Source: Minisyncoccota bacterium (GTDB lineage: Bacteria > Patescibacteriota > Minisyncoccia > Phycocordibacterales > Phycocordibacteraceae). From it: DNA of 64,000 nt. A model generated the notes under the pieces. It was given only the letters and a program-made list of their open reading frames with translations. It was not told the origin of the DNA and searched no databases. Position 1 is the first letter of the stretch. Each line of letters begins with the position of its first letter. The stretch lies in the NCBI GenBank assembly GCA_035627655.1, contig DASPLI010000001.1:523509-587508 (forward strand), written 5' to 3'. This document shows positions 1 through 51,718 of the stretch, one piece after another. The position numbers and the translations under genes are program-made.

Positions 1-70
1 GATCTCGTTCTTCCTTATCCTGCTTGAACCGATACGGTTCTGGTACCTCCTCAAGAACTTCTTCTACGAC

Positions 71-433
71 ATGCCAGTCGTAGGGAAGTATCTGCTCCTG
101 CCTCAGCTGCGGAAGATCGTACCCACGCTCACGGCTAAGGAACTCCAATTTGCGAAAGGGTATGGAGGTATGCGCCTGCAACGTGTCGATACCAACAGTC
201 GGCAGCTCCTGCTGGGCGAAGGGAAGATCGTGGGAGAACGAATTATATTCAATATGACACCGTCGCCCGGCGCGTCCGTTGCGCTCTACAACGCCATGCG
301 TGATGCGGCGCAGATAATGGCGTTCGAGCCAAGGTATGAATTCGATAAGCAGCGGATGCTTGCTGAACTCTGTATAAATCGTACGCCTCCGACAGGCAAA
401 GACCCGTCCCTCGAAGATTCGTACGCTTCCTAG
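71..433 (+). CDS. hypothetical protein; the frame is open back to the window edge, so it may be 5'-partial
   Basis: 120-aa ORF; in-frame translation from nt 2 has no stop; no recognisable motif. Confidence 0.3.
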   Translation: MPVVGKYLLLPQLRKIVPTLTAKELQFAKGYGGMRLQRVDTNSRQLLLGEGKIVGERIIFNMTPSPGASVALYNAMRDAAQIMAFEPRYEFDKQRMLAELCINRTPPTGKDPSLEDSYAS

Positions 434-481
434 TACGGTTCCCACGAACGGATGTTAACCTAATAGTAATATTGAACTTAT

Positions 482-1174
482 ATGAAATACATACTCGCAC
501 TTATAGTCCTCACGATGATTGGCGTCGGCGTATATGCGCTTTCCCAAGAACGCATGGCTCCTGCATCTCAAGATTCAGTAGAGTCAGCAAACAGCCTTCC
601 TGAAGGAGCTTCAGTTGTTACTGATGGCGTTTACAGCGTTATTCCTGGAGAGAGCCGCGTAGAGTGGGCAGGCAAGAAGCCCCTCCTCGACGGCTACATA
701 AATACCGGATCGATTGCGGTATCAACGGGAGTGATTACGGTTGCGCAAAAGGTGGCTACAGCTGAGTTCACCATGGATATGGACACCCTTTCCGTTTCGG
801 CGACTCCAACCAAGCCAGGTCAGGAGAACGCGCTCGAGGGGCACCTCAAAGGGGAGCGCTGGTTTAATGTCGCTGCACACCCTACAGCAACCTTCGCTAT
901 CACGAAGGTTGCGGAGCGTGCAGATAGCGGAGAAACGTTTGTGTATGACATTACCGGCGACCTCACGCTCAAAGGGCAGACACACCAGGTGACGTTCCCT
1001 GCAACCATTTATCAGACCTCCGACGGTCGCGTACGTGCCGCCGGATCATTCGAGATCGATCGTACTCAATGGGGTATTACCTCTGGCTCAGCGTCCTTCT
1101 TCGATAATCTTGCCGACAACGCAATCGATGACATAGTTGCGCTGTCGTTCTCGCTCGTAGCGGCTACGCAGTAG
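482..1174 (+). CDS. YceI-like periplasmic/polyisoprenoid-binding family protein with N-terminal signal anchor
   Basis: N-terminal hydrophobic segment; YceI-like beta-barrel pattern (TGDLTLKGQTHQVTF ... GSFEIDRTQWGI). Confidence 0.5.
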   Translation: MKYILALIVLTMIGVGVYALSQERMAPASQDSVESANSLPEGASVVTDGVYSVIPGESRVEWAGKKPLLDGYINTGSIAVSTGVITVAQKVATAEFTMDMDTLSVSATPTKPGQENALEGHLKGERWFNVAAHPTATFAITKVAERADSGETFVYDITGDLTLKGQTHQVTFPATIYQTSDGRVRAAGSFEIDRTQWGITSGSASFFDNLADNAIDDIVALSFSLVAATQ

Positions 1175-1550
1175 TTCTAGTGATATCGTAGGCACAATAA
1201 AAGAGTACGACACGAAGCAAATTCCATGGAGTCGAATTAGAACATTAGCCAATAAAGCACAGAAATCATCTTGGAAACTGTACGATCAAATTAGGAAAGA
1301 GAAAGAAAAGCCAGAGAGTAAAGAACCTCTTAATCCAGAAGAACCTCACACATATCCAAGGTCAAACTCGGACACGTTCAATTCTGATTTACACGACATA
1401 TCAGAAGTACAAAAAGAGCTTAGATTTTTTATTGACTTCAGCAACGGTACATCAGCAAAAATTTCAAATCGACCGCTTTTAATGGTTAAGGGATTGGCTG
1501 GTTCTGGCAAGACCCATTTACTTTGTTCTGTGGAGACAAGCTCGTCTTAG
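1161..1550 (+). pseudogene. remnant of a P-loop NTPase gene: 130-codon open frame with no start codon for about 110 codons, Walker A GLAGSGKTH, stop 22 codons later
   Basis: Translation ...ELRFFIDFSNGTSAKISNRPLLMVKGLAGSGKTHLLCSVETSSS*; locally AT-rich; not in the ORF track because it lacks a start. Confidence 0.3.
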
Positions 1551-1918
1551 TATATTCGGATTCAAAAGGATATTGGACTCCGCCAGGTGGTGGGGTGGAA
1601 GAGGGCGAGGATGTTCGGACTGCTGTCCGGCGCGAAGTACAGGAGGAGACGAATATGAAGGTGCTCAAACAGCGCTTCATTGGTTGCCAGGATATATCTG
1701 AGCCAAAAGGAGTTGTCTCGCAGGCTCGATCAGTTTGTATTGTTGAACCCTATGGCCCGTTCGTCAGCGATCCGGATGGTGAGGCAACCAAGATTGAATT
1801 GATTGATCCGAAGGACTATAAAAAATATTTTGACTGGGGAGAGATCGGGGACCACATCATGCAACGTGCTTTAGAATTGAAAGCACAAATGGATTCGGAA
1901 ACGAATTACGTAAACTAA
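1523..1918 (+). CDS. Nudix hydrolase, N-terminally short (TTG start), possibly truncated
   Basis: Nudix box GGGVEEGEDVRTAVRREVQEETN only about 20 aa from the N-terminus; TTG start; in a different frame from the upstream NTPase fragment. Confidence 0.55.
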   Translation: MFCGDKLVLVYSDSKGYWTPPGGGVEEGEDVRTAVRREVQEETNMKVLKQRFIGCQDISEPKGVVSQARSVCIVEPYGPFVSDPDGEATKIELIDPKDYKKYFDWGEIGDHIMQRALELKAQMDSETNYVN

Positions 1919-2041
1919 GTCCGCACGAGACGCGTCGTTTAGAAATAGAAATCACCAGCCATACGGACTAAGCAGGGCTTGACTGGCCACGGTTCTGGCC
2001 CAAGACGGCCAGCAATTAACCCCCCATGTTCTAATAGGGGC

Positions 2042-2524
2042 ATGATCGAAAGAAGAGAAAAGGGCCCAACGCCGAAACCGTTTACTTTACGTCAGGCAAC
2101 TGAAGAAGATTTGCCTTTCCTTTATCGCGTCTCTACTGAGGCGATGAGGCCTGTCTCGAAACTTTCTGGCTCATCATTTAAACCAGAGGAGGAAAGATTC
2201 AAAGACTACAAAACAAGATTCGTTCCAGAAGCGATACAAGTAATCCAGCATAATGGAGAAGATGTAGGCAGACTCCGTGTCGTGCGTTCACCCGAATCTA
2301 TTTACGTGGGCGGTATTCAGTTACTCCCCGAGCATCAGGGTAAGGGAATTGGAACCGCGCTGTTTGCTGAGCTGATCGAAGAATCGAATCAGACATCTAT
2401 CCCCATACTGCTCGAGGTACATGAGGTGAATGCCCGGGCGATCGCGTTCTATAAGAGTCTGGGGTTCGAAGAGGGCGAGAAGGTCGGGAATCAAACTGTC
2501 ATGAGGTACCTGCCTAGTAAGTAG
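2042..2524 (+). CDS. GNAT family N-acetyltransferase
   Basis: GNAT motifs (RLRVVRS..., QGKGIGTALF, AIAFYKSLGF); ATG 2042 sits 5 nt after TAATAG; terminator hairpin follows. Confidence 0.8.
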   Translation: MIERREKGPTPKPFTLRQATEEDLPFLYRVSTEAMRPVSKLSGSSFKPEEERFKDYKTRFVPEAIQVIQHNGEDVGRLRVVRSPESIYVGGIQLLPEHQGKGIGTALFAELIEESNQTSIPILLEVHEVNARAIAFYKSLGFEEGEKVGNQTVMRYLPSK

Positions 2525-2556
2525 ATTCCAACAAGGTCCCAGACAGCCAAAAGGGA

Positions 2557-2583
2557 AGCGCGGCTCATTTGCCGCGCTTTTTG
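2557..2583. terminator. rho-independent terminator hairpin (AGCGCGGC-loop-GCCGCGCT + T5), bidirectional for the GNAT gene and the convergent minus gene
   Basis: GC stem plus T-run read directly. Confidence 0.55.
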
Positions 2584-2894
2584 CGCTCTCTCGGAAAACG
2601 CTCGTAGTACAAGTCCCACCACGCTTCGGTTGCGTCATCCAAACATTCGCGCAGGACCGTGTCCTTCTCGTTGTCGAACATCTGGGTTGTCTGACGAATC
2701 ACTTCCTCGTGGTCGCCTTCCCGCACCGCCCTTACGAGAAGGGGGTGGTTTGGGAAAAGTGTTTCGAATTGGATAATGATATCGATAGGTACTCGTTTTA
2801 TCTTCTTTCCCATTTGTTCCCTCCAGAGAACCAGTGCTTCGTTATGTTCAGGCAGAACTCTGTCAGGAAGTCTAGAGAAGACCCTTTGGATCAA
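2565..2894 (-). CDS. hypothetical protein; possible HEPN-like partner of the upstream gene
   Basis: 109 aa; R-x6-H arrangement (RAVREGDH); overlaps the upstream gene by 23 nt. Confidence 0.3.
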   Translation of the reverse strand: MIQRVFSRLPDRVLPEHNEALVLWREQMGKKIKRVPIDIIIQFETLFPNHPLLVRAVREGDHEEVIRQTTQMFDNEKDTVLRECLDDATEAWWDLYYERFPRERKKRGK

Positions 2895-3324
2895 ATGGCA
2901 TCACCATATGGAATCCACTTCCATCTGCCTTTGGCTTGTAGCACGCCACAAGGATACAGGCGACTTCTGGGTCGATGGTCCCATCCGGCTTCATCAGCGG
3001 GTACCGCTGGATAAAGGCGCGATCCATATCCGATATAGATTTCGCCTCGCCAGACCCGAGAAGTACGAGACGACTGTCTTCTGACATTTCATTCATGTCT
3101 TTGAAGCCACAACAGACCTGTGCTAGCTCGAATACAGCCTGGATCATTGTGGTCCTACCGTCTTCGTATGCATCGGTCAGGAAGGCCAGCTGAAGTGCAA
3201 GCGACTTACTGACCGTAACGCCGGTCCGCAAGCGTATTCTGGGTTTTCTAAACATCTCTTCCCTCCGTAGGCGAGATCCTGCTTCCAAGGGCACAGTATC
3301 ACCAGAACAGAATGGTTCCAACAT
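2872..3324 (-). CDS. hypothetical protein; possible minimal nucleotidyltransferase-like (GS-x7-DMD) protein
   Basis: 150 aa; LLGSGEAKSISDMD resembles the MNT hG[GS]...DxD motif but is not N-terminal. Confidence 0.3.
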   Translation of the reverse strand: MLEPFCSGDTVPLEAGSRLRREEMFRKPRIRLRTGVTVSKSLALQLAFLTDAYEDGRTTMIQAVFELAQVCCGFKDMNEMSEDSRLVLLGSGEAKSISDMDRAFIQRYPLMKPDGTIDPEVACILVACYKPKADGSGFHMVMPFDPKGLL

Positions 3325-3360
3325 CGTCCCAGACAGTCAGCAACGAGATATACTGGCCAT

Positions 3361-3609
3361 ATGGATAACATTGTAGCCATAGCTTTCCTCGCCTTCATGG
3401 TAGCTATGATTTCTTATGTGCTTTTCGCGATGCATCGCCTTAAGAGGAAGAGGAAAGCAGTTGGATTAAAAACACCTTTCCTAACGTCAGACAACGCAGC
3501 TATTGCCGATCATATGAACTCACTACCACCGTTCGTTCGGCTAGTAATCTTAGTCCTTGTAGTTTTATTTGTTGGAGGGGTATTCCTATACGCTTTTTTC
3601 CGTCCCTAG
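3361..3609 (+). CDS. small membrane protein (2 TM)
   Basis: 82 aa with two hydrophobic helices; TATACT 6 nt upstream of the ATG, no SD. Confidence 0.4.
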   Translation: MDNIVAIAFLAFMVAMISYVLFAMHRLKRKRKAVGLKTPFLTSDNAAIADHMNSLPPFVRLVILVLVVLFVGGVFLYAFFRP

Positions 3610-3665
3610 CAAATATAAAACTCCAACATCATCCCTGATAGCCAGCTCGGTTTATACTTTTTATT

Positions 3666-3884
3666 ATGTGGTACATAAAACTAATTCTCATAAGCCTGAT
3701 CGAAATCATGCTCGCATATAGTCTTTGGAATTCGCTAAAGACTAGGATTGGCATGAATGATCAAGTAACTGCACCTATCCGCGAGAAATATCAACCCGTT
3801 TCTTATTGGCTGTGGATCTTTATTATGGCATCCGGAGTTTTCTTCCTAGTGCCGCTTATAGGTATAACGCTATTAGCGGAGTAA
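3666..3884 (+). CDS. small membrane protein (2 TM)
   Basis: 72 aa hydrophobic; TATACT 7 nt upstream of the ATG. Confidence 0.4.
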   Translation: MWYIKLILISLIEIMLAYSLWNSLKTRIGMNDQVTAPIREKYQPVSYWLWIFIMASGVFFLVPLIGITLLAE

Positions 3885-3962
3885 CAAAGTTCCAACACCG
3901 TCCCAAACAACCAGCAAGAAATGGTAGGATGAGGCTTTGGAATAGTTCCTCAGGAGGTACAG

Positions 3963-4214
3963 ATGAACGACCTTGCTTCTCTTGGTCTTCTGATGCGTAG
4001 TGGTACTTCAGGCGAGTCAAGTGAGCAGCGCCTTGAGTTGCGTATTGCGTCTACGGACGCATTCGTCGCATGGTTTCAGAGAGTCACGCGAATGAGTGCC
4101 GCCGAGGAGGTTGTCAGCACGAACACGCAGATTGTTCGTCGCAGCGAACTTAGCGATGAGCAGTTTTCTGCGGCACAAAGCTGGCTTCGCGAGCAACTAC
4201 TCGCTACTTACTAA
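3963..4214 (+). CDS. hypothetical protein
   Basis: 83 aa; AGGAGG RBS 7 nt upstream; terminator downstream. Confidence 0.35.
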   Translation: MNDLASLGLLMRSGTSGESSEQRLELRIASTDAFVAWFQRVTRMSAAEEVVSTNTQIVRRSELSDEQFSAAQSWLREQLLATY

Positions 4215-4221
4215 TACCTAA

Positions 4222-4253
4222 AGACGGCTCTTGGAGAGCCGTCTCTCCCTTTT
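4222..4253 (+). terminator. rho-independent terminator (GACGGCTCT-TGG-AGAGCCGTC + T-rich tail)
   Basis: perfect 9-bp stem followed by a CTCCCTTTT run. Confidence 0.6.
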
Positions 4254-4309
4254 AGGGTTACTACAGTTCCGATAATGTTCCAGGCAGTCAACTAAGGTAA
4301 AATGATTAC

Positions 4310-4717
4310 ATGCAGAAAACAACCACGTTCTTAATGTTTGTTGGAGAACAGTGCGGCAAGGCGAAAGAAGCCATCGAATGGTATACGTCACTTTTTAAGA
4401 ATTCTGAGATTAAAAATATCGAATATCTAAGTGCAGAGGAGACCGGTGGAAAAGAGAATTTTGTAAAAATTGCAACGTTTACTTTAGATGGACAGGAATA
4501 TATAGCGAACAATAGTCCAGCGCCACATCAATTCACATTCACACCTGCTATATCAATTTTTGTCTCTTGTAACTCCGAAGAAGAATTAGAGAACTTGTTT
4601 ATGGCACTATCGGCCAATGGAAAAGTGCTTATGCCAATCGACAACTACGGTTTTAGTAAAAAGTTCGCGTGGATCAATGACAAGTACGGGGTTTCATGGC
4701 AATTGAACTTCGCATAA
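4310..4717 (+). CDS. VOC/PhnB-like protein (3-demethylubiquinone-9 3-methyltransferase-domain family), AT-rich copy
   Basis: C-terminal KYGVSWQLNF signature; low-GC codon usage compared with neighbours. Confidence 0.65.
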   Translation: MQKTTTFLMFVGEQCGKAKEAIEWYTSLFKNSEIKNIEYLSAEETGGKENFVKIATFTLDGQEYIANNSPAPHQFTFTPAISIFVSCNSEEELENLFMALSANGKVLMPIDNYGFSKKFAWINDKYGVSWQLNFA

Positions 4718-4796
4718 GGGAGCAAAGAACCGTTATTTTTCAGATAAACAGCAAGACGAAAAGCCGCCCAGTAGGACTGGGCGGCTCGTAGGAGGT

Positions 4797-5087
4797 TCAG
4801 CTTCTTTCGAAGTAGACGTACGTCTGGTTCTGTCTGCGGAAGTGATAGCAGTCCGAGTACTCACCCGTGAATGCTATATCAGGGTCGTCGGTAGGTGTGC
4901 CATTCACTGGCGCATCGCGTACGCGCTCGATTGAGTAGTTGCCCTTGTAGAAACCGCATCGCCGGACGCGATATTCTCCTGGATACAATACGTTGCGTAT
5001 CATATCCAAGAGGGACTTCTTTTGAGGAGTGAATGATTCCTCAATTTTCCCATCGACGAGATGGTTGGTGTGGAAGCTCAGTGTCAT
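4797..5087 (-). CDS. hypothetical protein
   Basis: 96 aa ORF divergent from the 5175 gene; no motif recognised. Confidence 0.3.
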   Translation of the reverse strand: MTLSFHTNHLVDGKIEESFTPQKKSLLDMIRNVLYPGEYRVRRCGFYKGNYSIERVRDAPVNGTPTDDPDIAFTGEYSDCYHFRRQNQTYVYFERS

Positions 5088-5174
5088 CGTCTTTACTCCG
5101 CTGCTCCAACGGAGACTCTATAGCGATTGATCCAGAAGTCAATGTGAGAACTGGCGCGAGGTATACTGGTTTAT

Positions 5175-5660
5175 ATGAATACAACACCCAAGAATACGAT
5201 TTGCCTCTGGTTCGAAAAGGATGCGCTTGCTGCAGCAGAGTTTTACGCTGCTACGTTTCCTGATAGTAAAGTAGGCTCTATTTTCTACGCACCTTCTGAT
5301 TTTCCAGATGGAAAGGCAGGAGACATTCTCACGGTTGAATTTACCGTTTGCGGTGTTCCGTGTGTTGGTCTCAATGGCGGTCCTACGTTCAAGCAGAGCG
5401 AAGCATTTTCCTTCCAGATCGCAACGGATGACCAAGAAGAAACAGACCGTTACTGGAATGCAATTGTTGAGAACGGCGGCCAGGAAAGCGCCTGTGGTTG
5501 GTGCAAGGATCGTTGGGGCGTGTCGTGGCAGATTACTCCGCGAGTACTGCTTGAGGCTCTTGCAGTTGGAGGTGAAGAAGCAAAACGCGCATTCAATGCG
5601 ATGATGACTATGCAAAAGATTGACGTTGCCGCTATTGAAGCTGCGCGACGTGGAGAATAA
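5175..5660 (+). CDS. VOC/PhnB-like protein (3-demethylubiquinone-9 3-methyltransferase-domain family), GC-rich paralog
   Basis: CGWCKDRWGVSWQI signature; TATACT 7 nt upstream of the ATG. Confidence 0.7.
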   Translation: MNTTPKNTICLWFEKDALAAAEFYAATFPDSKVGSIFYAPSDFPDGKAGDILTVEFTVCGVPCVGLNGGPTFKQSEAFSFQIATDDQEETDRYWNAIVENGGQESACGWCKDRWGVSWQITPRVLLEALAVGGEEAKRAFNAMMTMQKIDVAAIEAARRGE

Positions 5661-5730
5661 AAACGAACACGTTTCCAGTGGACAGTGAATAGAAGAGGAG
5701 CCAGCAATACGCTGGCTCCTTGTGCTGAGG

Positions 5731-6138
5731 TTATAGATCGCGACCGGTGTAGATGTCTTTCTTGCAGACGAGCTCAAGAAAAGAGCGATACTCCTTCTTT
5801 GGTGGGAAACTGTCGTTGTCGACAAACTCCCCAAGCGTCCGAAAGACGGGATAATCGAATACCTGTCCGCGCAGCAGGGGTACGACTTCCGACATTGGTT
5901 TGCTTGCAATTATGTCCCATCGATTGAGAGCTGGTTTTGCAAGTTCGCCACCGCGATGTCTGAGCAAGTCGAGCAACAGAGAAAGTCGCATTTGGGTAGG
6001 AAGTCGCTCGTCTTTTACCCACGATTCGATGTCTGCCTCCGTTGTGCGGAAGAAGTATCCCCATTCGAAGCGACTATAGAAGCCGGTGTCGTCCAAGAGG
6101 GCTTTCAAAACGCTCCCAGCAGTTTCTGATTCGTTCAT
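5731..6138 (-). CDS. hypothetical protein
   Basis: 135 aa; GGAGG RBS 6 nt upstream on the minus strand. Confidence 0.4.
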   Translation of the reverse strand: MNESETAGSVLKALLDDTGFYSRFEWGYFFRTTEADIESWVKDERLPTQMRLSLLLDLLRHRGGELAKPALNRWDIIASKPMSEVVPLLRGQVFDYPVFRTLGEFVDNDSFPPKKEYRSFLELVCKKDIYTGRDL

Positions 6139-6227
6139 TGGAACCTCCGTCTGTCCTTATACTAAACCTGACCATAAAGCACAAACGGAATAGTAGTGAA
6201 GTAAGAAAAATCTGATAGCTTTGTACA

Positions 6228-7217
6228 ATGTCCGTCGCAAGAGTTTCACGAGAGAATAAAACAAACTATTTGATTACCGATTCTGGCAAGGAAATGATCG
6301 CCGTAGTGCGCGGCAAATTCCACCTGTCAGATCAGGGGTTTCCTAAGGTAGGAGACTACGTAGAGTACGCTCAAACAACAGACACTGAGGCGGTTATTGA
6401 AGAGGTGCTTCCACGCAGGACCGAAATTGTCAGGAAGTCGGCGGGAGAAACGACTGAGCGACAAGTCATCGTGGCAAATGTCGACCTTATCTATATCGTC
6501 ATGGGGTTGGATGACGACTTCAACCTTAAGCGGCTTGAACGCTACGTGCTCCTCGCAGAACAGAGCGGCGTAAAGCCGGTTATCGTTCTCAACAAATGTG
6601 ACATACCGTCTCATCCCGAACAGATGCTGAAGGAAGTGCAAGAACGGTTTGCACATGTAGATTGCCATCTTGTCGGTGCTGCTCGTGGCACGAATATGGA
6701 TTCAATTATGAGCTACGTGCATGACGACGTTACCGCAGTTCTTTTGGGTTCTTCAGGAGCAGGAAAGTCGACCATTACAAACTGGCTCCTTAGGCAAGAC
6801 ATACAAGATACGCAGGAAGTGCGGAAAGATGATGGGCGCGGTCGTCACACGACGACTGCACGGCAACTGTTCTCTCTTCCGAGGGGCGGCTACCTGATTG
6901 ATACTCCCGGGATGCGTGAACTTGGAGTGGTTGGTGAAATCGGCGGTGAAGTATTTACAAATATCGAAGAACTCAGTCGCTTGTGTAAATTTCGAGACTG
7001 CGACCATGAGCGCAGTGCGGGCTGTGCGGTACAAAAGGCGATTGCAGAAGGTAAGTTGGACTATCAACAACTCGCCAGCTTCCAAAAGCTAGGCCGAGAA
7101 AAAGCGTTTCTTGAAAGTCGCGGGGATCAGGAGGCGGAATGGAAACACAATTTAGCAAATCGAAAACTGCATAAGAAGTATAGTCAGATTCAGCGCGAGA
7201 AGTACGATAGACAATAG
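6228..7217 (+). CDS. rsgA: ribosome small-subunit-dependent GTPase A
   Basis: Circularly permuted GTPase motifs (VLNKCDI, LLGSSGAGKSTI, DTPGMRE) and C-terminal zinc finger CKFRDCDHERSAGC. Confidence 0.85.
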   Translation: MSVARVSRENKTNYLITDSGKEMIAVVRGKFHLSDQGFPKVGDYVEYAQTTDTEAVIEEVLPRRTEIVRKSAGETTERQVIVANVDLIYIVMGLDDDFNLKRLERYVLLAEQSGVKPVIVLNKCDIPSHPEQMLKEVQERFAHVDCHLVGAARGTNMDSIMSYVHDDVTAVLLGSSGAGKSTITNWLLRQDIQDTQEVRKDDGRGRHTTTARQLFSLPRGGYLIDTPGMRELGVVGEIGGEVFTNIEELSRLCKFRDCDHERSAGCAVQKAIAEGKLDYQQLASFQKLGREKAFLESRGDQEAEWKHNLANRKLHKKYSQIQREKYDRQ

Positions 7218-22962: not shown

Positions 22963-23037
22963 AAATACTAAGCGGCCTCGAAAGGGGCCGCTTCTTCATA
23001 TGTGTCTCTCGCTGCGCGGTGTATACTTCGCGCGTAT

Positions 23038-24705
23038 ATGACGCAAGCTGAAGCGCTTTCCATACTGCAGACAGGCGCGAATGCTTTTCTGACTGGCGAG
23101 CCAGGCAGTGGCAAGACGCACACCGTCAATACATATGTTGCGTGGCTGCGTGCTCGTGGTATTGAACCGGCAATCACTGCTTCAACCGGCATTGCGGCAA
23201 CCCATGTTGGTGGCATGACGATTCATTCCTGGAGCGGTATCGGCATACGCGACTACTTGTCGGAAGCGGATGTCGACATGATCGCCTCTAAAGAGCATGT
23301 CGCTCGCAGAATCAATCGAACGAACGTTCTGATTATTGACGAGATTTCTATGCTCTCGGGGAATGTGCTCTCCATGGTCGATCGTATTGTGCGCGAGGTG
23401 CGCAGAACGCATCTGCCTTTTGGCGGCATGCAGGTTGTTGCGGTTGGTGACTTCTTTCAGTTGCCGCCGGTTACGAAGGGAAGCGCAAGTCCGTTATTTG
23501 CCTTTGAGTCCCCTTCTTGGCGCGCCCTCAACCCGTTGGTGCTGTATCTCACCGAGCAGCATCGACACGATGATCCAAAATTTGCCGCTGTGCTTGGCAG
23601 TATTCGTCGCGGTGAGAGCGATCAGGGAGACGTAGCACGCATTGTTTCAAAAGAAGCGTCCTTGGAAGATGTTGCAGATGACGTTCCGCGCCTCTATACG
23701 CATAATGCTGACGTTGATAAGGAAAATGCAGAGAAGCTTGAAGGACTCAAGGGATCTTCAAAGCGCTTTACTATGGAATCAAACGGGTCGGAGGTGCTGG
23801 TGGAAGCGCTCAAGCGTGGCTGTCTCTCGCCTGAAGCGCTTGAGCTGAAGGTCGGAGCGGTAGTCATGTTTACAAAAAACAATCCGCTTGCCGGCTACGT
23901 CAACGGAACGCTTGGCGTCGTGCTTGGCTTTGAGCGCGGAACGAATTGGCCGCTTGTGGAAACCCGCGATGGACGCACTATCACGGCCGCTCCGCAGGAG
24001 TGGGTGGTGGAGGAGCAGGGAAAGATCAGAGCGAAAGTCATACAGGTGCCGCTCAAGCTTGCATGGGCCATCACCATTCACAAGAGCCAGGGACAAAGCT
24101 TGGATGCTGCTGCCGTTGATCTGTCGCGCGCCTTTGAGTACGGGCAGGGATATGTCGCGCTTTCACGCCTGCGGACCCTCGAAGGACTCCACCTGCTTGG
24201 CTGGAGCGAAAACGCGCTTCGTATACATCCGACAGTGCAGCAGATAGATAAAGAATTTCGTGCGGCGTCTGAGGCGGCACAAGCGGCGTTCGGCGAGCTT
24301 GAGCGAACAGGAGAGCGCACGAAGCTCGAAGAAAACTTCCTGCGTGCCTGTGGTGGCAGTCTCACGCCAACCAAAGATGGCGAACCTCGGGGCAAGCGAA
24401 CCACGCATGACGAAACGCTCTCCTATATCCAAGAAGGCAAGCCACTTGCTGCAATCGCTGATGCTCGGTCGCTGACATTTGGCACGATCGCCGAACATGT
24501 CGAAGAACTTATTAAAAACGATCGCCTGACGCGCGAGGAGGTCGAGCCGCTCATCCCTGCAGAGCTTTTGCGCGCCTTGCCGCAGATATTTGATGTATTT
24601 GAACAGGTGGGTACCGAACGGTTGACGCCGGTCTTTGCTCGGTTGGGAAAGAAATATCCGTTTGAATATCTAAAAATTGCTCGAGCACTATACCGCACTG
24701 AATGA
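23038..24705 (+). CDS. PIF1-family ATP-dependent DNA helicase
   Basis: Q-motif region LSILQTGANAFLTGEPGSGKTH; full set of SF1B helicase motifs. Confidence 0.8.
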   Translation: MTQAEALSILQTGANAFLTGEPGSGKTHTVNTYVAWLRARGIEPAITASTGIAATHVGGMTIHSWSGIGIRDYLSEADVDMIASKEHVARRINRTNVLIIDEISMLSGNVLSMVDRIVREVRRTHLPFGGMQVVAVGDFFQLPPVTKGSASPLFAFESPSWRALNPLVLYLTEQHRHDDPKFAAVLGSIRRGESDQGDVARIVSKEASLEDVADDVPRLYTHNADVDKENAEKLEGLKGSSKRFTMESNGSEVLVEALKRGCLSPEALELKVGAVVMFTKNNPLAGYVNGTLGVVLGFERGTNWPLVETRDGRTITAAPQEWVVEEQGKIRAKVIQVPLKLAWAITIHKSQGQSLDAAAVDLSRAFEYGQGYVALSRLRTLEGLHLLGWSENALRIHPTVQQIDKEFRAASEAAQAAFGELERTGERTKLEENFLRACGGSLTPTKDGEPRGKRTTHDETLSYIQEGKPLAAIADARSLTFGTIAEHVEELIKNDRLTREEVEPLIPAELLRALPQIFDVFEQVGTERLTPVFARLGKKYPFEYLKIARALYRTE

Positions 24706-26064: not shown

Positions 26065-26147
26065 CTGAAACGGCGCTTCCTCTTGGGGAGCGCCGTTTTC
26101 CCATTTCTCCGTATTCGCACCTTGCCCATACCGTATACTAGGAAGCA

Positions 26148-28877
26148 ATGGCAATGACCTACGAAGGTCCGGTGCAACCGTTGTCCTCGCCTGAGGAGGA
26201 GCTTGCACATTTGCGCGCACAGATTGAGGCGAAGGAGCGCGAGCTTGCAAGCCTTAAGAAGGAGCGTCCGCGCGAGGATGTGGTTCGGGAACGTATTACA
26301 CGCCACGTGGCGATGCCGGCAGGACATGTGCTCCATCCGGAGTATCAGATGTCGGAACCAGAGGCACGGGAAATTGCCCTCAACCTGGAGCCCGAGAGCG
26401 ACGACGCCACCATGGAGGAGCTCCGCACGCTCATGGATACGCGCGGCATCCATAACGCATTTCAGGTTCTCGACAAGCTCAAGAACCCGCATCTTGAAGA
26501 TGATTTCCATCGCTATCTCGTTGCCTATGTGACCGCCGGCATGCCCATCAAGGGCCTCAATGAGAGCGAGCCGACCTGGAAGGCGCTTCATATGACCCTG
26601 TATGACATTGCGCTTCCAGAAATGGCGAATGACGAGGATCGCAACCGTTCCTTCAAGGAGCTGGTGTCTTCCATGGAGCAGTTTTATGGCGGCATGCGCG
26701 CTGTTGAGGATGCGTATGCGGGAGAGCCGGCTTATTTCTCGATGGAGCTTGCGATTCCTGCGGATAAGCCGCACCTGCGCTTTTATGCAGCCGTTCCAAA
26801 CGGTCGTCGTGATCTGTTTGAAAAACAGGTACTCGCTATTTTCCCGAACGCGGTTATCACGCCCGAACCAAACGACTACAACCTCTTCGTACAGGATGGT
26901 GAATCGGTTGGCTCCGTTGCAAAGCTTGCCAAGCGCCATCCGTATGCACTCAAGGACTATCCCGAGTTTGACTACGATCCGCTGAACTCTCTATTGAATG
27001 CGTTTGCCAAGCTTGAAGCGGAAGGAGAAGGAGCAGCGCTCCAGATCCTCATTCGTCCGAAGGGGGACCAATATCTCTCGCTGTACCGCCGAATGATGAA
27101 GGAGTTGCAAAAGGGGGAACCATCCAAGGAAGTGTTTCAGATGTCAGATGATTTCGCTGCGGAGATGTTCCGAGAGACGAAAGAAATATTCAAAGGAGAG
27201 AAAAAAAAGACGTCCGGTCCAGACCAAATGGCGATTGAGTCCTTGGAGCGAAAGATGTCTTCGCCAGTCGTGGAGACGAATATCCGTCTCGTTGCTTCGT
27301 CTCGTACGCAAGGGCGTGCGCAGCAGATTCTCCACGAGATGGAAGCATCGTTCAACCAGTATGAAAACACCAAGGGAAACCGGTTTGAATTCAAGCGACT
27401 TTCTGGCGGTGCGCTTCGTGGTCTCTTGAAGCAGGTATCTTACCGGCTCTTCTCGCATGACGGCCTGATCCCGCTCTCGCTTCGCGAGCTTACCACCCTG
27501 TATCACTTCCCACCGAAAGGCATTACATCGTCGCCACACTTGAAGCAGTCGCGCTTTACGGCTGGTCCTGCGCCCGTGGACCTTGCTCAAGATGGCATTC
27601 TGCTTGGCACGAACTCGTTCCGCGGCACGGAGACAAAGGTGCATTTCAGTCAGGCAGATCGTGCACGCCACCTCTATGTAATCGGACAGACGGGTACCGG
27701 TAAGACGTCGTTCATGAAGACGCTTATTGAGCAGGACATTAAAAATGGCGAAGGTGTCTGTTTCATTGATCCGCACGGTAACGACATTCTCGACATTCTC
27801 GCTTCTGTCCCGCCTGAGCGATACGACGACGTCATCTACTTTGATCCGGCAAACCTCAGCCGGCCATTCGGTCTCAACATGCTCGAATACGATCCGGCGC
27901 GTCCGGAACAAAAGACGTTCATCGTCAACGAACTGCTTGCTATATTCCGACGCCTCTATGGCGACGTGCCAGAGTCCATGGGTCCTGCGTTCGAGCAGTA
28001 CTTCCGTAACGCAACAATGCTGGTGATGGAGGATCCGGCGTCCGGTTCAACGATGATGGACATTGCGCGTGTGCTCTCCGATGCCATGTTCCGCAATATG
28101 AAGCTTGCGCGCAGCAATAACCCGGTTGTGAATCAGTTCTGGACGAAGATCGCGACCCAGGCTGGCGGCGAAGCTTCGCTTGAAAACATCGTGCCGTACA
28201 TCACCAACAAGTTCGATGACTTCACCGCAAACGACTTCATTCGCCCGATCGTCGGCCAGCAGAATTCCTCGTTCAAGTTCCGAGACATCATGGATCAGCG
28301 AAAGATCCTGCTCGTGAACCTCTCCAAGGGTCGTCTCGGAGAGCGAAACGCAAACCTGCTCGGCCTCGTGCTCGTGGGCAAGATTTTCATGGCAGCACTC
28401 TCACGCGCAGATAATCCAGGCGCGGAATTCCCGCCGTTCTATCTCTATATCGATGAATTCCAGAACATTACGACCGACTCCATTCCCGGCATTCTTTCTG
28501 AGGCGCGTAAATACAAACTCTCGCTCACGATCGCGCATCAGTTCCTCAAGCAGGTGGACGAGAAGATCAAGGATGCGGTATTTGGTAACGTAGGCTCCAT
28601 GGCCGTGTTCCGTGTCGGCGAAGAGGACGCGGAATACTTCGCCAAGCAGTTTGCACCGGTGTTCTCCGCGCTTGATTTCGTGAATATTGAAAACTACAAC
28701 GCGTATCTGAAAATGCTTTCGCGCGGCGTGCCGCAAAAACCATTCAATATTCGCACACTCGCTCCGTCAGTGGGGAATAAGTCGCAGATCGACGACCTGC
28801 GTCAACTCTCGGCACTCACGTATGGTCGAGACCGAGAGACCGTGGAGCAAGAGATTCGCCAGCGCTACCTTACGTAA
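26148..28877 (+). CDS. TraD/TraG/VirD4 (TrwB)-like P-loop ATPase, soluble, with ~450-aa N-terminal extension of unknown function
   Basis: HLYVIGQTGTGKTS Walker A, LYIDEFQNI Walker B, LTIAHQ; no TM helices; N-terminal coiled-coil. Confidence 0.65.
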   Translation: MAMTYEGPVQPLSSPEEELAHLRAQIEAKERELASLKKERPREDVVRERITRHVAMPAGHVLHPEYQMSEPEAREIALNLEPESDDATMEELRTLMDTRGIHNAFQVLDKLKNPHLEDDFHRYLVAYVTAGMPIKGLNESEPTWKALHMTLYDIALPEMANDEDRNRSFKELVSSMEQFYGGMRAVEDAYAGEPAYFSMELAIPADKPHLRFYAAVPNGRRDLFEKQVLAIFPNAVITPEPNDYNLFVQDGESVGSVAKLAKRHPYALKDYPEFDYDPLNSLLNAFAKLEAEGEGAALQILIRPKGDQYLSLYRRMMKELQKGEPSKEVFQMSDDFAAEMFRETKEIFKGEKKKTSGPDQMAIESLERKMSSPVVETNIRLVASSRTQGRAQQILHEMEASFNQYENTKGNRFEFKRLSGGALRGLLKQVSYRLFSHDGLIPLSLRELTTLYHFPPKGITSSPHLKQSRFTAGPAPVDLAQDGILLGTNSFRGTETKVHFSQADRARHLYVIGQTGTGKTSFMKTLIEQDIKNGEGVCFIDPHGNDILDILASVPPERYDDVIYFDPANLSRPFGLNMLEYDPARPEQKTFIVNELLAIFRRLYGDVPESMGPAFEQYFRNATMLVMEDPASGSTMMDIARVLSDAMFRNMKLARSNNPVVNQFWTKIATQAGGEASLENIVPYITNKFDDFTANDFIRPIVGQQNSSFKFRDIMDQRKILLVNLSKGRLGERNANLLGLVLVGKIFMAALSRADNPGAEFPPFYLYIDEFQNITTDSIPGILSEARKYKLSLTIAHQFLKQVDEKIKDAVFGNVGSMAVFRVGEEDAEYFAKQFAPVFSALDFVNIENYNAYLKMLSRGVPQKPFNIRTLAPSVGNKSQIDDLRQLSALTYGRDRETVEQEIRQRYLT

Positions 28878-32954: not shown

Positions 32955-33959
32955 TTAGGCACGCATCGAAGTGATGAACGTTTGGACCGTGTCCATGTTG
33001 CTCGCCAGCCAGCTGCCGCCATAGACGGCGCCGATGCCAAGTCCAACAGTGATGACGCCGTACGCGATCGCGCTCTTGGGCGAGATCTCGTAGATCTTCT
33101 CGACAATGTAGAGGAGCGAGAAGATCGCCGCGATATAGAGCAGCGTTCCTTCGTTGGCCATGACGCCAGCGTAGAGACCGCCGCCAAAAACCGCGATGGC
33201 GAAGACTTGGCGCAAGGCGTAGTGCATGGAGCGCTTTCCGTCGTTCCCGTACCAGCGACTTGCGATGATCAGCATGCCCACGCCCGCGCACAGCGTACCC
33301 ATCCAGAATGCGCCAGATTCGAAGACCTGGAGCACGGGGACGGAGACGTTGTACACCTGGAGCGTCGCGAACGTTCCTGCAAGCAGGATCGACGCGACGG
33401 TTGCCGCCGGAATCTTGTCCTCGCTGTCCCAGCCGATGGCATAGGATAATCCGCCGCCGATGGCCGAGAAGCCAAGCAGGTGGAGGAAGGCGAGAACGGC
33501 CAAAAAGCCGATCGACACGCTCGTGAGCGTCATCGCGAGAATGCCCCAGACGATCAACAAGATCGCCGAGTACACCCACGCCGGGCCGTCGCTGTCTCCA
33601 AGCAGTGCAAGCAGCGCCGGCGCGAAGATGACCGCGCCAATGAAGCTTGCGACTGCGCCGGGGAACAGGTTCGTTGCCCAGTCAGGCGCCAGGAAGCCGT
33701 AAGCAACCAGGAGACCGCTGAGGACGAGACCGATGAAGCCAAGCATCTGCTTCGACCAGTCAAGGGCGAAGAGACGGCTCAAGAGAACGCCGGTGCCGCC
33801 CAAAATGAGGACGCCGCCGAGGAACCAGAGGACCCCCGGACCGTCGACATAGCCGACCAGCTGTTGGGCTGGCGACAATTCGGGGCAGACCGTATCAGCA
33901 AAAGCGAGACTGGGGGCGAAAACCCCAAGCATCGCTAAGAAGGCAAATAACCTTCCCAT
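32955..33959 (-). CDS. polytopic membrane protein with signal peptide
   Basis: Signal peptide LAFADT, then about 10 hydrophobic helices. Confidence 0.45.
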   Translation of the reverse strand: MGRLFAFLAMLGVFAPSLAFADTVCPELSPAQQLVGYVDGPGVLWFLGGVLILGGTGVLLSRLFALDWSKQMLGFIGLVLSGLLVAYGFLAPDWATNLFPGAVASFIGAVIFAPALLALLGDSDGPAWVYSAILLIVWGILAMTLTSVSIGFLAVLAFLHLLGFSAIGGGLSYAIGWDSEDKIPAATVASILLAGTFATLQVYNVSVPVLQVFESGAFWMGTLCAGVGMLIIASRWYGNDGKRSMHYALRQVFAIAVFGGGLYAGVMANEGTLLYIAAIFSLLYIVEKIYEISPKSAIAYGVITVGLGIGAVYGGSWLASNMDTVQTFITSMRA

Positions 33960-34069
33960 ATCGTTCCTTTCACTCAAAAGAACTTCCGTGTGTGGAAGCC
34001 GGGGAATATGAAGCCATATATACAGTGAATAGTCAAGGAATGGGATCATGCATTTGCTATACTCCGCAC

Positions 34070-36133: not shown

Positions 36134-36148
36134 GGTATACTGAAGCGC

Positions 36149-48855: not shown

Positions 48856-48873
48856 TTCTGGTACACTAGGCAT

Positions 48874-51276: not shown

Positions 51277-51350
51277 TGGTCGGGCCGCCGGGAATCGAAC
51301 CCGGTCTTCACGCACCCGAAGCGTACGTACTACCGGTATACTACGGCCCG
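51277..51350 (-). tRNA. tRNA-Pro (anticodon CGG), CCA encoded
   Basis: C1:G72; anticodon loop TTCGGGT; 74 nt including CCA. Confidence 0.85.
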
Positions 51351-51351
51351 G

Positions 51352-51424: not shown

Positions 51425-51460
51425 GAACAATTGGCACACTAACACATTTTTGTTCGGTAG

Positions 51461-51663: not shown

Positions 51664-51718
51664 CAAATATTGACTAATTTGTCCGTGTGTCGTAATACAG
51701 TATATAGGAGGTACAACG

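What the first reader, a model, noticed from the sequence alone, without database searches (positions are those of the whole stretch)
437..5177. Recurring ~25-nt intergenic motif placed just upstream of -10 hexamers that sit 6-7 nt before start codons
A motif approximating GTTCCAACAnCGTCCCAGACAGyCAGCAA occurs at least seven times. Clear copies are at 2526-2550, 3316-3343, 3621-3646, 3889-3917, 4266-4292 and 5104-5130. A degenerate copy is at 1991-2015 and a weaker one at 437-460. In five cases the motif ends 5-6 nt before a TATACT, TAATAG or TAAAAT hexamer. That hexamer lies only 5-7 nt before the ATG of an accessory gene, with no Shine-Dalgarno sequence. The genes are the GNAT gene at 2042, the small membrane proteins at 3361 and 3666, and the PhnB-like paralogs at 4310 and 5175. 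The motif therefore occupies the -35 region of apparent leaderless promoters and does not resemble TTGACA. One copy (2526) sits between a stop codon and its terminator instead. It could be the site of a dedicated sigma or transcription factor controlling a small accessory regulon, or a dispersed repeat family.
Basis: seen in the sequence. Interest (0 to 1): 0.7.

Follow-up and report, generated by a model that had tools for sequence, protein, structure and literature searches.

The report
Boundary repeat of gene-cassette arrays
The repeated 30-35-nt motif is most likely not a promoter signal but the boundary (attachment-type) site separating small single-gene cassettes in arrays that start at a tRNA-Gln gene, an integron-like gene-capture layout found in many ultra-small Patescibacteria genomes and apparently not yet described.

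Summary
The motif is real. Four copies are firm (idx0 at 2524, 3314, 3619, 3888) and one is probable (4265). One is a borderline relic (2001-2015). The copies claimed at 437 and 5104 are not supported.

It is not local. The consensus A-R-AAA-GGTTCCAACATCGTCCCAGACAGCCAGCAA occurs 481 times in 173 Patescibacteria loci. Copies always lie in one orientation per locus. They form arrays of up to 13 copies, with units of median 529 nt that usually hold one ORF in either orientation.

Arrays start just downstream of a tRNA-Gln gene, or of a bare tRNA-Gln-like 3' fragment (T site) that shares the motif's outer and inner blocks. This holds for the window's own genome.

Three results show modular recombination at the motif. 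Identical DNA follows tRNA-Gln ...CAGC and motif ...CAGC. A whole cassette is shared between genomes with unrelated flanks. An 877-bp unit is present in one strain and absent in another, with breakpoints inside the motif.

Large serine recombinase + Rep elements sit at the tRNA-Gln end in several loci, and tyrosine recombinases in two. The recombinase remains unproven.

The -10 box 6-7 nt before ATG is the genome-wide leaderless style and does not need the motif. The sigma/TF-regulon reading is not supported. "Repeat family" is closer.

The parts
1991..2015 (+). Possible decayed M-site relic upstream of the GNAT gene
   Evidence: Only the 3' half (2001-2015...GGCCAGCAA) aligns to the family HMM, E=5.4. 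A relic of the hairpin element GCACGAGACGCGT lies just upstream at about 1923-1935.
2042..2524 (+). GNAT acetyltransferase cassette gene, ending directly at an M site
   Evidence: Pfam Acetyltransf_1 1.3e-13. The M site begins directly after the stop codon.
2524..2553 (+). M site copy 1 (GATTCCAACAAGGTCCCAGACAGCCAAAAG), 6 mismatches to the consensus
   Evidence: PWM 29.5; E=2e-4. It is followed by a hairpin terminator and a reversed unit, not by a co-oriented gene.
2554..3313 (-). Reversed unit: hairpin terminator (2561-2580) and two minus-strand ORFs (2565-2813, 82 aa; 2872-3255, 127 aa)
   Evidence: Gene calls in L002 and ORFs. No Pfam match. The layout (terminator next to the left M) is the same as in reversed units elsewhere.
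3314..3343 (+). M site copy 2 (GGTTCCAACATCGTCCCAGACAGTCAGCAA), 1 mismatch; best copy in the window
   Evidence: PWM 55.4; E=8.5e-12.
3349..3609 (+). Unit: -10 TATACT (3349-3354), leaderless ORF 3361-3609 (82-aa membrane protein)
   Evidence: The ORF stop lies 9 nt before the next M.
3619..3648 (+). M site copy 3 (AACTCCAACATCATCCCTGATAGCCAGCTC), 8 mismatches
   Evidence: PWM 21.2; E=0.033.
3653..3884 (+). Unit: -10 TATACT (3653-3658), leaderless ORF 3666-3884 (72 aa)
   Evidence: stop 3 nt before the next M.
3888..3917 (+). M site copy 4 (AGTTCCAACACCGTCCCAAACAACCAGCAA), 4 mismatches
   Evidence: PWM 42.8; E=1.5e-5.
3918..4264 (+). Unit: TAGGAT -10, leader with GGAGG, ORF 3963-4214 (83 aa), hairpin terminator at about 4218-4247
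   Evidence: The whole unit, from the left M to the right M, is homologous to unit 33-411 of L095 in another genome, while the flanks are unrelated.
4265..4294 (+). M site copy 5, degenerate (AGTTCCGATAATGTTCCAGGCAGTCAACTA)
   Evidence: PWM 11.3 against a null maximum of -1.6. Not found by nhmmer. It aligns with the right-hand M of the homologous L095 unit.
4298..4717 (+). Unit: -10 TAAAAT (4298-4303), leaderless PhnB-like gene 4310-4717
   Evidence: Pfam 3-dmu-9_3-mt 4.5e-32.
4797..6138 (.). Probable older units whose boundary sites have decayed: reversed 96-aa ORF (4797-5087), PhnB-like 5175-5660, reversed 135-aa ORF (5731-6138)
   Evidence: No supported M here. The 5175 gene has GGTATACT plus 7 nt plus ATG, as cassettes elsewhere do. 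It is 75% identical in DNA to a gene in the L012 array. An unverified relic GTTTCCA...AGCCAGCAA lies at 5671-5707 (read).

Best explanation
The motif ('M site', about 35 nt, asymmetric, unstructured) is the repeated boundary site of a gene-cassette array. It works as an attachment or recombination site, not as a promoter element.

**Layout.** In this clade of Patescibacteria, arrays begin at the 3' end of a tRNA-Gln gene, or at a bare tRNA-Gln-like 3' fragment ('T site'). The arrays consist of units of about 0.3-1 kb, each usually one gene, separated by co-oriented M sites.

**Proposed mechanism.** A circular or incoming unit carries one M site. It recombines with ...CAGC at the end of tRNA-Gln, a T site or another M site. 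The bulk of M therefore ends up at the 3' end of each unit. The next unit starts right after CAGC(AA).

**Why the motif sits before -10 boxes.** Forward units are maximally compact, with 5-7 nt, then a -10 box, then 6-7 nt, then ATG. That is why M appears to occupy the -35 region of leaderless genes.

**The window.** It holds an old, partly decayed array (5 recognisable sites) inside a low-GC island. The island runs from tRNA-Gln (5.7 kb left of the window) towards rsgA.

**What is shown.** The site family, the array anatomy, tRNA-Gln seeding, junction identity at CAGC, modular cassette sharing, and one presence/absence polymorphism with breakpoints inside M.

**What is inferred.** That a site-specific recombinase does this. 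The best candidate is the large serine recombinase found in Rep-carrying elements inserted exactly at the tRNA-Gln end. M would be an attP-type half-site and T an attB-type half-site.
For: **Site family.** 113 copies with up to 5 mismatches occur in 49 GTDB loci. Conservation is sharp-edged, from -5 to +29. More than 120 further metagenome stretches carry the exact 27-mer. Pooled, there are 481 copies in 173 loci, none on the opposite strand within a locus, up to 13 per locus, and the median unit is 529 nt.

**Unit anatomy.** Forward ORFs start 16-24 nt after M and stop 1-10 nt before the next M. Reversed units have a terminator next to the left M and their own TTGACA promoter next to the right M.

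**Cargo.** It is diverse and mostly unknown: NUDIX, cupin, HAD, methyltransferase, HD, CutA1 and others. Most of the 78 proteins have no Pfam match.

**tRNA-Gln seeding.**
- A full tRNA-Gln or a T site lies within 2 kb upstream on the same strand in 48 of 102 loci where the upstream region is visible. Only 2 T sites lie downstream and none on the other strand.
- In the window's own genome, tRNA-Gln is at L002 3781-3854. An M relic follows the first downstream gene (L002 4412-4436, E=0.03).

**Similarity of T and M.** T = GGTTCGAATCCTAGGCGGCCAGC and M = GGTTCCAACATCGTCCCAGACAGCCAGC. They share the outer block GGTTCnAA and the inner block ..GCCAGC.

**Junctions.** The same DNA follows tRNA-Gln ...CAGC| and M ...CAGC| in L002 versus L026 and within L040.

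**Cassette sharing.** Window 3888-4294 matches L095 33-440, while the flanks are unrelated.

**Indel.** L183 carries an 877-bp unit between two M sites. L187 has a single M at that place. The flanks are 92-95% identical.

**Recombinases.**
- Large serine recombinase genes (Resolvase + Recombinase + Zn_ribbon_recom) paired with a Rep gene occur in 6 M loci. They are always left of the array and on the opposite strand. In L149 and L221 they abut the tRNA-Gln 3' end.
- M and T differ by 5 nt in the linker between the shared blocks. Serine-integrase attP and attB half-sites differ in the same way (PMC3783163).

**Composition.** The island has lower GC, 0.45-0.50 against 0.53-0.57 elsewhere.
Against: - No recombinase gene lies in the window or in the 20 kb around it. 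Most arrays have none within the 8 kb held.
- M shows no dyad symmetry and no conserved partner arm to its right. A canonical serine or tyrosine recombinase core site should have one.
- Two different recombinase types occur next to these sites. Tyrosine recombinases are present in L165 and L181. The enzyme is therefore not identified.
- Deletion of a unit between two 30-bp direct repeats could also arise by homologous recombination. The indel alone therefore does not prove site-specific recombination.
- About half of the arrays with visible upstream DNA show no tRNA-Gln or T site within 2 kb.
- No excised circles or empty sites were observed directly.
Confidence: 0.7

Rival explanations
1. Promoter or regulon element. 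M is the upstream (-35/UP or activator/sigma) part of promoters that drive leaderless accessory genes.
For: - 138 of 408 strong copies are followed within 45 nt by TAnnnT-N5-8-ATG. The gap from M to the -10 box peaks at 3-7 nt.
- Forward units lack a TTGACA -35 box, whereas reversed units carry one.
- Three window genes show this geometry.
Against: - The same leaderless -10/ATG promoters occur genome-wide without M.
- About two thirds of strong copies have no such -10+ATG within 45 nt, and the gap ranges 0-29 nt.
- Copy 2524 and all reversed units (30 of 84) have no co-oriented gene to drive.
- tRNA-Gln 3' ends and T sites take the same position before -10 boxes.
- 30 consecutive near-invariant, asymmetric positions are unlike a sigma or TF site.
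- The window copies decay while the -10 boxes and ATGs stay intact.
- Copies are clustered, not dispersed.
Confidence: 0.1
2. Portable homology without a dedicated recombinase. The conserved 30-35 bp serve as RecA substrates. DNA taken up by these naturally competent cells is swapped in or out between M copies, and the arrays grow by homologous recombination.
For: - The unit indel has breakpoints anywhere inside M.
- Most arrays have no recombinase gene nearby.
- Copies are near-identical within and between genomes.
- A competence gene (DprA) lies near related loci.
Against: - It does not explain why arrays start at tRNA-Gln or T sites, which share only short blocks with M.
- It does not explain why the same DNA follows tRNA-Gln CAGC and M CAGC, where only 4-7 nt are identical.
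- It does not explain the strict single orientation.
- It does not explain why integrative LSR+Rep elements sit at the same point.
- 30 bp is at the lower limit for RecA-dependent exchange (established knowledge).
Confidence: 0.15
3. RNA-level punctuation. The motif acts in the transcript as a processing, termination or stability signal placed after each stop codon, by analogy with tRNA punctuation.
For: M starts 1-10 nt after stop codons and derives from, or mimics, a tRNA 3' end. The RNA would be C-rich and unstructured.
Against: - It has no structure and matches no Rfam family.
- It lacks a tRNA-like fold, so RNase P or RNase Z recognition is unlikely.
- It is also present next to reversed units, where it need not be transcribed in that sense.
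- It does not explain the indel or the junction data.
Confidence: 0.05

Closest known systems
Integron gene-cassette arrays, in particular sedentary chromosomal integrons and CALINs (attC clusters lacking an integrase)
   Same: - Arrays of compact, mostly single-ORF units of about 0.3-1 kb.
- Diverse cargo, mostly of unknown function, including GNAT, glyoxalase-fold and NUDIX proteins.
- All recombination sites lie in one orientation, with the site at the 3' end of each unit.
- Conservation is one-sided, to the left of the crossover.
- Reversed units carry their own promoters.
- Site sequences are homogeneous within a lineage.
- Many arrays have no adjacent integrase.
   Different: - The site is a conserved, unstructured 30-35-nt sequence, not a 57-141-bp imperfect hairpin with R''/L''-L'/R' boxes.
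- No IntI-type tyrosine recombinase is adjacent.
- The primary site is a tRNA-Gln 3' end, not attI.
- There is no common Pc promoter; forward units bring their own -10 box.
- A genome has several arrays.
Staphylococcal cassette chromosome (SCC/SCCmec) islands mobilised by the large serine recombinases CcrAB
   Same: - Elements integrate at the 3' end of a conserved housekeeping gene without destroying it.
- They accumulate in tandem, separated by short direct att repeats.
- Cassettes without a recombinase are mobilised in trans (PMC11470126).
- Large serine recombinase genes occur here in elements at the same site.
   Different: - The target here is tRNA-Gln, not rlmH.
- Units are about 50 times smaller, typically a single gene.
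- The att repeat is longer (about 30 nt) and differs in form (M) from the primary site (T).
- The organisms are unrelated.
- Recombinase involvement is not demonstrated here.
tRNA-seeded genomic islands built by tandem integration, e.g. tycheposons of Prochlorococcus
   Same: - The island starts at a tRNA gene.
- Partial tRNA copies mark the boundaries of successive integrations.
- Newer elements push older ones outward.
- Degenerate remnants are scattered through the island (10.1101/2020.12.28.424599).
- Partial tRNA-Gln copies are seen here in L040, L122, L146 and L221.
   Different: - Tycheposons are multi-gene elements with their own tyrosine recombinases, and their repeats are true tRNA fragments.
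- Here most units are single genes without a recombinase.
- The repeat (M) is a diverged tRNA-end mimic that differs in its central part from the tRNA-like T site (11 nt against 6).
Serine-integrase attP/attB half-site architecture (A118/LI, Bxb1, phiC31)
   Same: M and T share an inner block next to the presumed crossover and an outer block. The outer block is 5 nt further out in M. This is the relation described between attP and attB half-sites, where the ZD motif is shifted by 5 bp (PMC3783163).
   Different: Only one half-site is recognisable. No inverted partner arm is conserved. Canonical serine integrases do not recombine attP-type sites serially into arrays.

Membership tests
Integron (attC cassette array) | The recombination site folds as an imperfect hairpin (R''-L''...L'-R'), 57-141 bp, conserved in structure rather than in sequence | tested here: not met
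   M is conserved in sequence over 35 nt with sharp edges and no partner arm. Single-stranded DNA folding of either strand gives about 0 kcal/mol, z = +0.7. Forward units leave only about 50 nt between the stop codon and the next ATG.
Integron (attC cassette array) | An adjacent IntI-type tyrosine recombinase with attI and Pc | tested here: not met
   No XerC/D-like ORF (phmmer E<1e-3) in the window, L002, L106, L107 or any GTDB locus. Precomputed Pfam for 84 kb around the window shows none. Only L165 and L181 among the metagenome loci carry a Phage_integrase gene. IntI-specific features were not examined.
Integron (attC cassette array) | Tandem array of compact, mostly single-ORF units separated by co-oriented sites | tested here: met
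   481 copies, 0 on the opposite strand, median unit 529 nt.
tRNA-targeting integrative island (tycheposon-like or classical genomic island) | The island begins at the 3' side of a tRNA gene, and repeats related to the tRNA 3' end delimit the integrated units | tested here: met
   tRNA-Gln or a T site lies upstream on the same strand in 48 of 102 loci and in the window's genome. True partial tRNA-Gln copies occur in L040, L122, L146 and L221.
tRNA-targeting integrative island (tycheposon-like or classical genomic island) | Each element encodes its own integrase | tested here: not met
   Most units are single small genes without a recombinase. Only some loci have an LSR+Rep or tyrosine-recombinase unit.
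Large-serine-recombinase cassette system (SCC-like) | A large serine recombinase (Resolvase + Recombinase + zinc ribbon) is encoded in an element at the integration site | tested here: inconclusive
   Present in 6 of about 170 M loci. In all of them the gene lies left of the array on the opposite strand. It abuts the tRNA-Gln 3' end in L149 and L221. It is absent from the window and from most 8-kb loci. The link to M is positional only.
Large-serine-recombinase cassette system (SCC-like) | att sites consist of two inverted half-sites around a central dinucleotide, and attP half-sites are 5 bp longer than attB half-sites | tested here: inconclusive
   The 5-nt difference between M and T is met. 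Inverted partner half-sites were not found.
Large-serine-recombinase cassette system (SCC-like) | Recombinase-dependent excision and integration at the sites | not testable with these tools
   This needs biochemical or genetic assays, or read-level evidence of circular junctions.
Sigma-factor or transcription-factor regulon motif | Fixed position relative to the -10 box and transcription start, upstream of the regulated genes only | tested here: not met
   The gap ranges 0-29 nt. Only 34% of strong copies have a -10+ATG within 45 nt. Some copies are followed by terminators and reversed genes.
Sigma-factor or transcription-factor regulon motif | Sites dispersed over the genome at unlinked promoters, with a cognate regulator | tested here: not met
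   All window copies lie within 2524-4294, with none in the other 70 kb examined. No sigma or regulator gene is adjacent. Only 84 kb of the 743-kb contig could be read.
REP/BIME, MITE or CRISPR repeats | Palindromic unit (REP), terminal inverted repeats (MITE), or regular 25-40-nt spacers (CRISPR) | tested here: not met
   M has no palindrome and no inverted copies. Spacing is 207-2388 nt and holds ORFs.

The most novel reading that the evidence does not exclude
A clade of Patescibacteria has its own integron-like gene-capture system. Single-gene cassettes carry a 30-nt tRNA-Gln-mimic site, which acts as an attP-type half-site. A large serine recombinase, supplied in trans by small Rep-carrying integrative elements, inserts them serially at tRNA-Gln or at T sites (attB-type). 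The site is placed so that every captured forward gene is immediately expressed as a leaderless mRNA. This would be a second, mechanistically independent solution to the integron problem, in organisms with about 0.7-Mb genomes.
Probability: 0.3. Interest if true: 0.85.

Novelty: new variant of a known kind. Interest (0 to 1): 0.7.

Why it matters
Patescibacteria (CPR) have tiny, streamlined genomes and are thought to be poor in classical mobile elements. How they acquire and exchange accessory genes is largely unknown.

A conserved, easily searchable 30-nt site that delimits single-gene cassettes would give three things:
- a direct handle on their flexible gene pool. Hundreds of cassettes can be harvested from metagenomes with one pattern;
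- a candidate site-specific recombination system with a very short, defined site;
- an independent analogue of integrons and SCC elements for comparing how gene-capture platforms evolve.

For annotation, it also warns against reading the motif as a promoter or regulon signal.

Tried and rejected
- **Rfam.** Gathering threshold on the window, and E-value mode on 1-6500 and on 8 array loci. Nothing matched the motif.
- **tRNA identity.** The motif does not fold as a T-arm or acceptor stem, and ARAGORN finds nothing at M or T sites.
- **attC-like hairpin.** Rejected by folding.
- **Extended upstream block.** GACAGAACnTAnCATATGTTGCAG, seen next to some copies, turned out to be the conserved promoter/5' end of a family of reversed cassettes. 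It is not part of the site.
- **Synteny via RsgA homologues.** The 72% and 64% relatives are not syntenic, so this gave nothing.
- **DnaX homologue look-ups.** One species (P0195, 10 strains) has no M or T site at dnaX. C7867-001 and Ga0172367 have tRNA-Gln islands without M.
- **Homologues of the 83-aa cassette protein.** Only the query itself was found.
- **IMG/VR scan.** 0 hits.
- **Tyrosine recombinase next to arrays.** None in the GTDB loci or the window.
- **Inverted M-like partner arm** next to the LSR genes. Not found.
- **Literature.** No paper holds the sequence or describes such arrays in CPR.
- **16S rRNA resemblance.** The reverse-complemented motif shares two short k-mers (GGCTGTC, GATGTTGG) with a conserved 16S region as I recall it. 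No rRNA was available to test this, and I treat it as probable chance.

Full report
**1. The observation**

The window is part of a 742,731-bp contig (ena:ERZ27252484:k141_498263) that NCBI labels Candidatus Paceibacterota.

The degenerate pattern TCCAACANNNTCCCNRAYARYCA matches without mismatch at 2527, 3317, 3622 and 3891. All four are on the + strand. Chance expectation is 0.10.

I built a PWM and an HMM from copies in other genomes. They confirm these four (nhmmer E = 2e-4, 8.5e-12, 0.033 and 1.5e-5). The PWM adds a degenerate fifth copy at 4265-4294, scoring 11.3 bits against a best shuffle of -1.6.

- The copies at 437 and 5104 have no support.
- There are no further full copies in the 64 kb or in the 10 kb upstream. 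The only other trace is a partial relic after the first gene downstream of tRNA-Gln (L002 4412-4436; section 5).
- The -10 hexamer 6-7 nt before ATG is correct for 3361, 3666, 4310 and 5175.

**2. Leaderless promoters are the genome's general style**

In the rest of the window many housekeeping genes show TAnnnT, often TGnTAnnnT, 6-8 nt before ATG with no Shine-Dalgarno and no motif. Examples are rsgA (6228) and the genes at 8180, 10714, 26148, 36149, 42742 and 48874. A few genes have GGAGG. The -10/ATG geometry therefore does not single out these accessory genes.

**3. The motif is a widespread family**

A scan of one genome per GTDB species gave 98 stretches. About half come from MAGs labelled Patescibacteria, Paceibacterota, Parcubacteria, Wolfebacteria or Saccharibacteria. 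These carry the near-exact 30-mer GGTTCCAACATCGTCCCAGACAGCCAGCAA. The hits from other phyla match only the degenerate pattern inside genes.

- In 113 copies, conservation starts abruptly at -5 (A.AAA) and ends at +29.
- It was not found in IMG/VR.
- The host genomes are related but not close. ABC-F is 62-84% identical to the window's and DnaX 47-72%.
- I treat the differing NCBI phylum labels with caution. This is one broad Patescibacteria clade.

**4. Array anatomy**

Copies form arrays. Pooled, there are 481 copies in 173 loci (974 kb).

- None lies on the opposite strand within a locus.
- 123 loci have at least 2 copies, 77 have at least 3, and the maximum is 13.
- The 308 units have a median of 529 nt, IQR 390-636.
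- In the GTDB set the longest ORF is co-oriented with the motif in 54 units and reversed in 30.

Forward ORFs start mostly 16-24 nt after the motif and stop 1-10 nt before the next one. Reversed units have a hairpin terminator next to the left site. Their own promoter lies next to the right site, either a canonical TTGACA -35 or a conserved block.

Cargo is heterogeneous: NUDIX, cupin, nucleotidyltransferase, HAD, methyltransferase, HD, CutA1, a zinc-ribbon protein and others. Most proteins have no Pfam match.

The window array fits this pattern:
- GNAT | M | reversed two-gene unit with terminator | M | 82-aa gene | M | 72-aa gene | M | 83-aa gene with leader and terminator | M (decayed) | PhnB-like gene.
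- The region has lower GC (0.45-0.50) than the rest of the window (0.53-0.57).

**5. Arrays are seeded by tRNA-Gln**

A tRNA-Gln gene lies between dnaX and the first motif copy, in the motif's orientation, in many loci. The window's own genome has it at L002 3781-3854, 5.7 kb left of the window. There, the first gene after the tRNA is followed by a motif relic (L002 4412-4436, E=0.03).

Other arrays begin with a bare 23-nt 'T site', (A)GGTTCGAATCCTAGGCGGCCAGC. It has no tRNA body, sits right after a stop codon, and is followed by ..GGTATACT-N6-ATG, just as the motif is.

- Overall, 48 of 102 loci with visible upstream DNA have a tRNA-Gln 3' end or a T site within 2 kb upstream on the same strand. 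The median distance is about 500 nt.
- Only 2 T sites lie downstream of a first M, and none is on the other strand.
- T and M share GGTTCnAA at the outside and ..GCCAGC at the inside. They differ in the middle, which is 6 nt in T and 11 nt in M.

**6. Evidence that recombination happens at the site**

(a) The sequence directly after tRNA-Gln ...CAGCCA in the window genome is ACTCGTGCTAGGTTATCGCGCACGAGACGCGT. The same sequence follows two full M sites, and a tRNA-like hybrid site, in L026. Within L040 the same 50 nt follow both tRNA-Gln ...CAGC and an M site ...CAGC. Two further partial tRNA-Gln copies lie nearby.

(b) The window unit 3888-4294 is homologous over its whole length to a unit in L095. 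The match covers the leader, the 83-aa ORF and the terminator. The homology begins in the left M and ends in the right M, and the flanks are unrelated.

(c) L183 and L187 are 92-95% identical on both sides of one site. L183 carries an extra 877-bp unit (M at 4398 to M at 5275, one reversed ORF of about 275 aa) where L187 has a single M.

Together these show modular gain and loss of units with breakpoints in M. They also show that the tRNA-Gln end and M are equivalent as junctions, with the right boundary of exchange at CAGC.

**7. Candidate recombinases**

No recombinase lies in the window or within 20 kb of it.

Among the M-bearing loci, six carry a large serine recombinase of 486-502 aa (Resolvase + Recombinase + Zn_ribbon_recom). 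In L221, L149 and L146 the next gene is homologous, and Pfam (run on L221 and L149) calls it a Rep (REP_ORF2-G2P/RepSA). L151/L166 have a 306-aa ORF in that position with no detected similarity to it.

- After orienting M on +, the gene is always left of the array and on the minus strand.
- In L149 and L221 its 3' end abuts the tRNA-Gln 3' end.
- In L146 and L221 the element's far end is an M followed by a partial tRNA-Gln copy.
- Two other loci carry Phage_integrase tyrosine recombinases. In L165 the gene abuts an M.

The 5-nt linker difference between M and T matches the published relation between serine-integrase attP and attB half-sites, where the ZD motif is shifted 5 bp toward the centre in attB (PMC3783163). 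However, no inverted partner half-site is conserved. The enzyme is therefore a hypothesis, not a result.

**8. Mechanism and rivals**

Best-supported reading: M is the attachment or boundary site of cassettes that integrate at tRNA-Gln, T or M. The bulk of M is carried at the 3' end of each unit.

*Pure promoter/regulon reading.* It fails on five points:
- copy 2524 and the reversed units have no co-oriented gene to drive;
- 66% of strong copies have no -10+ATG within 45 nt;
- the gap ranges 0-29 nt;
- the same leaderless promoters occur without the motif;
- the window copies are decaying.

An auxiliary effect on promoter strength remains possible. Forward units lack TTGACA, whereas reversed ones have it.

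*RecA-mediated exchange between M copies.* This could explain the indel. It does not explain the tRNA-Gln/T seeding or the junctions that share only 4-7 nt.

*An RNA-level role.* It has no support, as there is no structure and no Rfam match.

**9. Comparison with known systems**

The layout works like an integron cassette array or CALIN. It is not a member of that family: the site is unstructured and no IntI is present.

It also resembles two other systems:
- tRNA-seeded islands built by serial integration, such as tycheposons;
- SCC elements, in which large serine recombinases stack cassettes behind the 3' end of rlmH, including cassettes without a recombinase.

It differs from both in unit size (single genes), in the form of the repeat (a tRNA-end mimic with an expanded centre), and in its hosts.

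I found no description of it in the searchable literature. That library is incomplete, so this is absence of evidence only.

**10. Limits**

- Only 84 kb of the source contig could be read.
- Most comparison loci are 8-kb blocks.
- Taxonomic labels are as deposited.
- ORFs in the comparison loci are mechanical calls.
- No experimental or read-level data were available.

Noticed in passing
L002 3781-3854 (contig position about 4255-4328; 5.7 kb left of window position 1): tRNA-Gln(UUG) lies downstream of dus-dnaX-peptidase M10. About 12 kb of accessory-type genes follow, reaching into the window up to rsgA: MatE, HxlR, ADH, glyoxalase, DUF6069, DAO, YceI and others. The motif array is the distal part of this island.
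   Followed up: yes
window 1198-1918: Gene fragments without proper starts. One is a P-loop NTPase piece ending ...GLAGSGKTHLLCSVETSSS*. It runs into a truncated NUDIX ORF (1523-1918, TTG start). This looks like pseudogenised cassette debris.
   Followed up: no
window 5671-5707: 10 nt after the stop codon of the second PhnB-like gene lies GTTTCCAGTGGACAGTGAATAGAAGAGGAGCCAGCAA. It begins and ends like the motif but has a longer middle. Its 3' end is part of the terminator hairpin. It may be a decayed site; the profiles did not detect it.
   Followed up: partly
window, genome-wide (e.g. 6215-6230, 26131-26150, 36132-36151, 48856-48876): Most genes appear leaderless: (TGn)TAnnnT sits 6-8 nt before ATG and there is no Shine-Dalgarno. 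Only a few genes (7693, 25171, 46242, 51719) have GGAGG.
   Followed up: partly
L026 (rc) 3159, 5482, 1721; L002 3855-3886; window about 1923-1935: A second repeated element, the hairpin ACTCGTGCTAGGTTAYCGCGCACGAGACGCGT, follows tRNA-Gln or motif copies in two genomes. A fragment of it survives upstream of the GNAT gene in the window.
   Followed up: partly
L025, L041, L058, L064, L065, L073, L082, L083, L095 (left of several M sites): A conserved block of about 30 nt, CTAGACAGAACnTAnCATATGTTGCAGAAA, abuts the motif in many reversed units. It appears to be a shared promoter/5' region of minus-strand cassette genes whose proteins differ.
   Followed up: partly
window 26148-28877, and 23002-24705: A 909-aa DUF8128/DUF87/TraG-like ATPase lies 1.4 kb from a PIF1-family helicase, with a holin-like gene and SAICAR synthase between them. 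The same gene set recurs near dnaX in related genomes (L110-L119, L122).
   Followed up: no
window 33001-34000: A compositional outlier: GC 0.61 and AT skew +0.27, against about 0.53-0.55 and about 0 elsewhere. It overlaps a 364-aa minus-strand ORF (32955-34049).
   Followed up: no
window 51277-51664: A tight cluster of four tRNA genes (Pro-CGG, Val-CAC, Pro-GGG and Ala-CGC), with Pro-CGG and Val-CAC abutting. Another tRNA-Ala lies at 52588.
   Followed up: no
L040 (rc) 1879-2200; L122 11130-11280: tRNA-Gln is followed within 30 nt by a 44-55-nt duplicate of its own 3' part, with a third short copy in L040. This is the classical att duplication of a different, anticodon-loop-type integration at the same tRNA.
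   Followed up: partly
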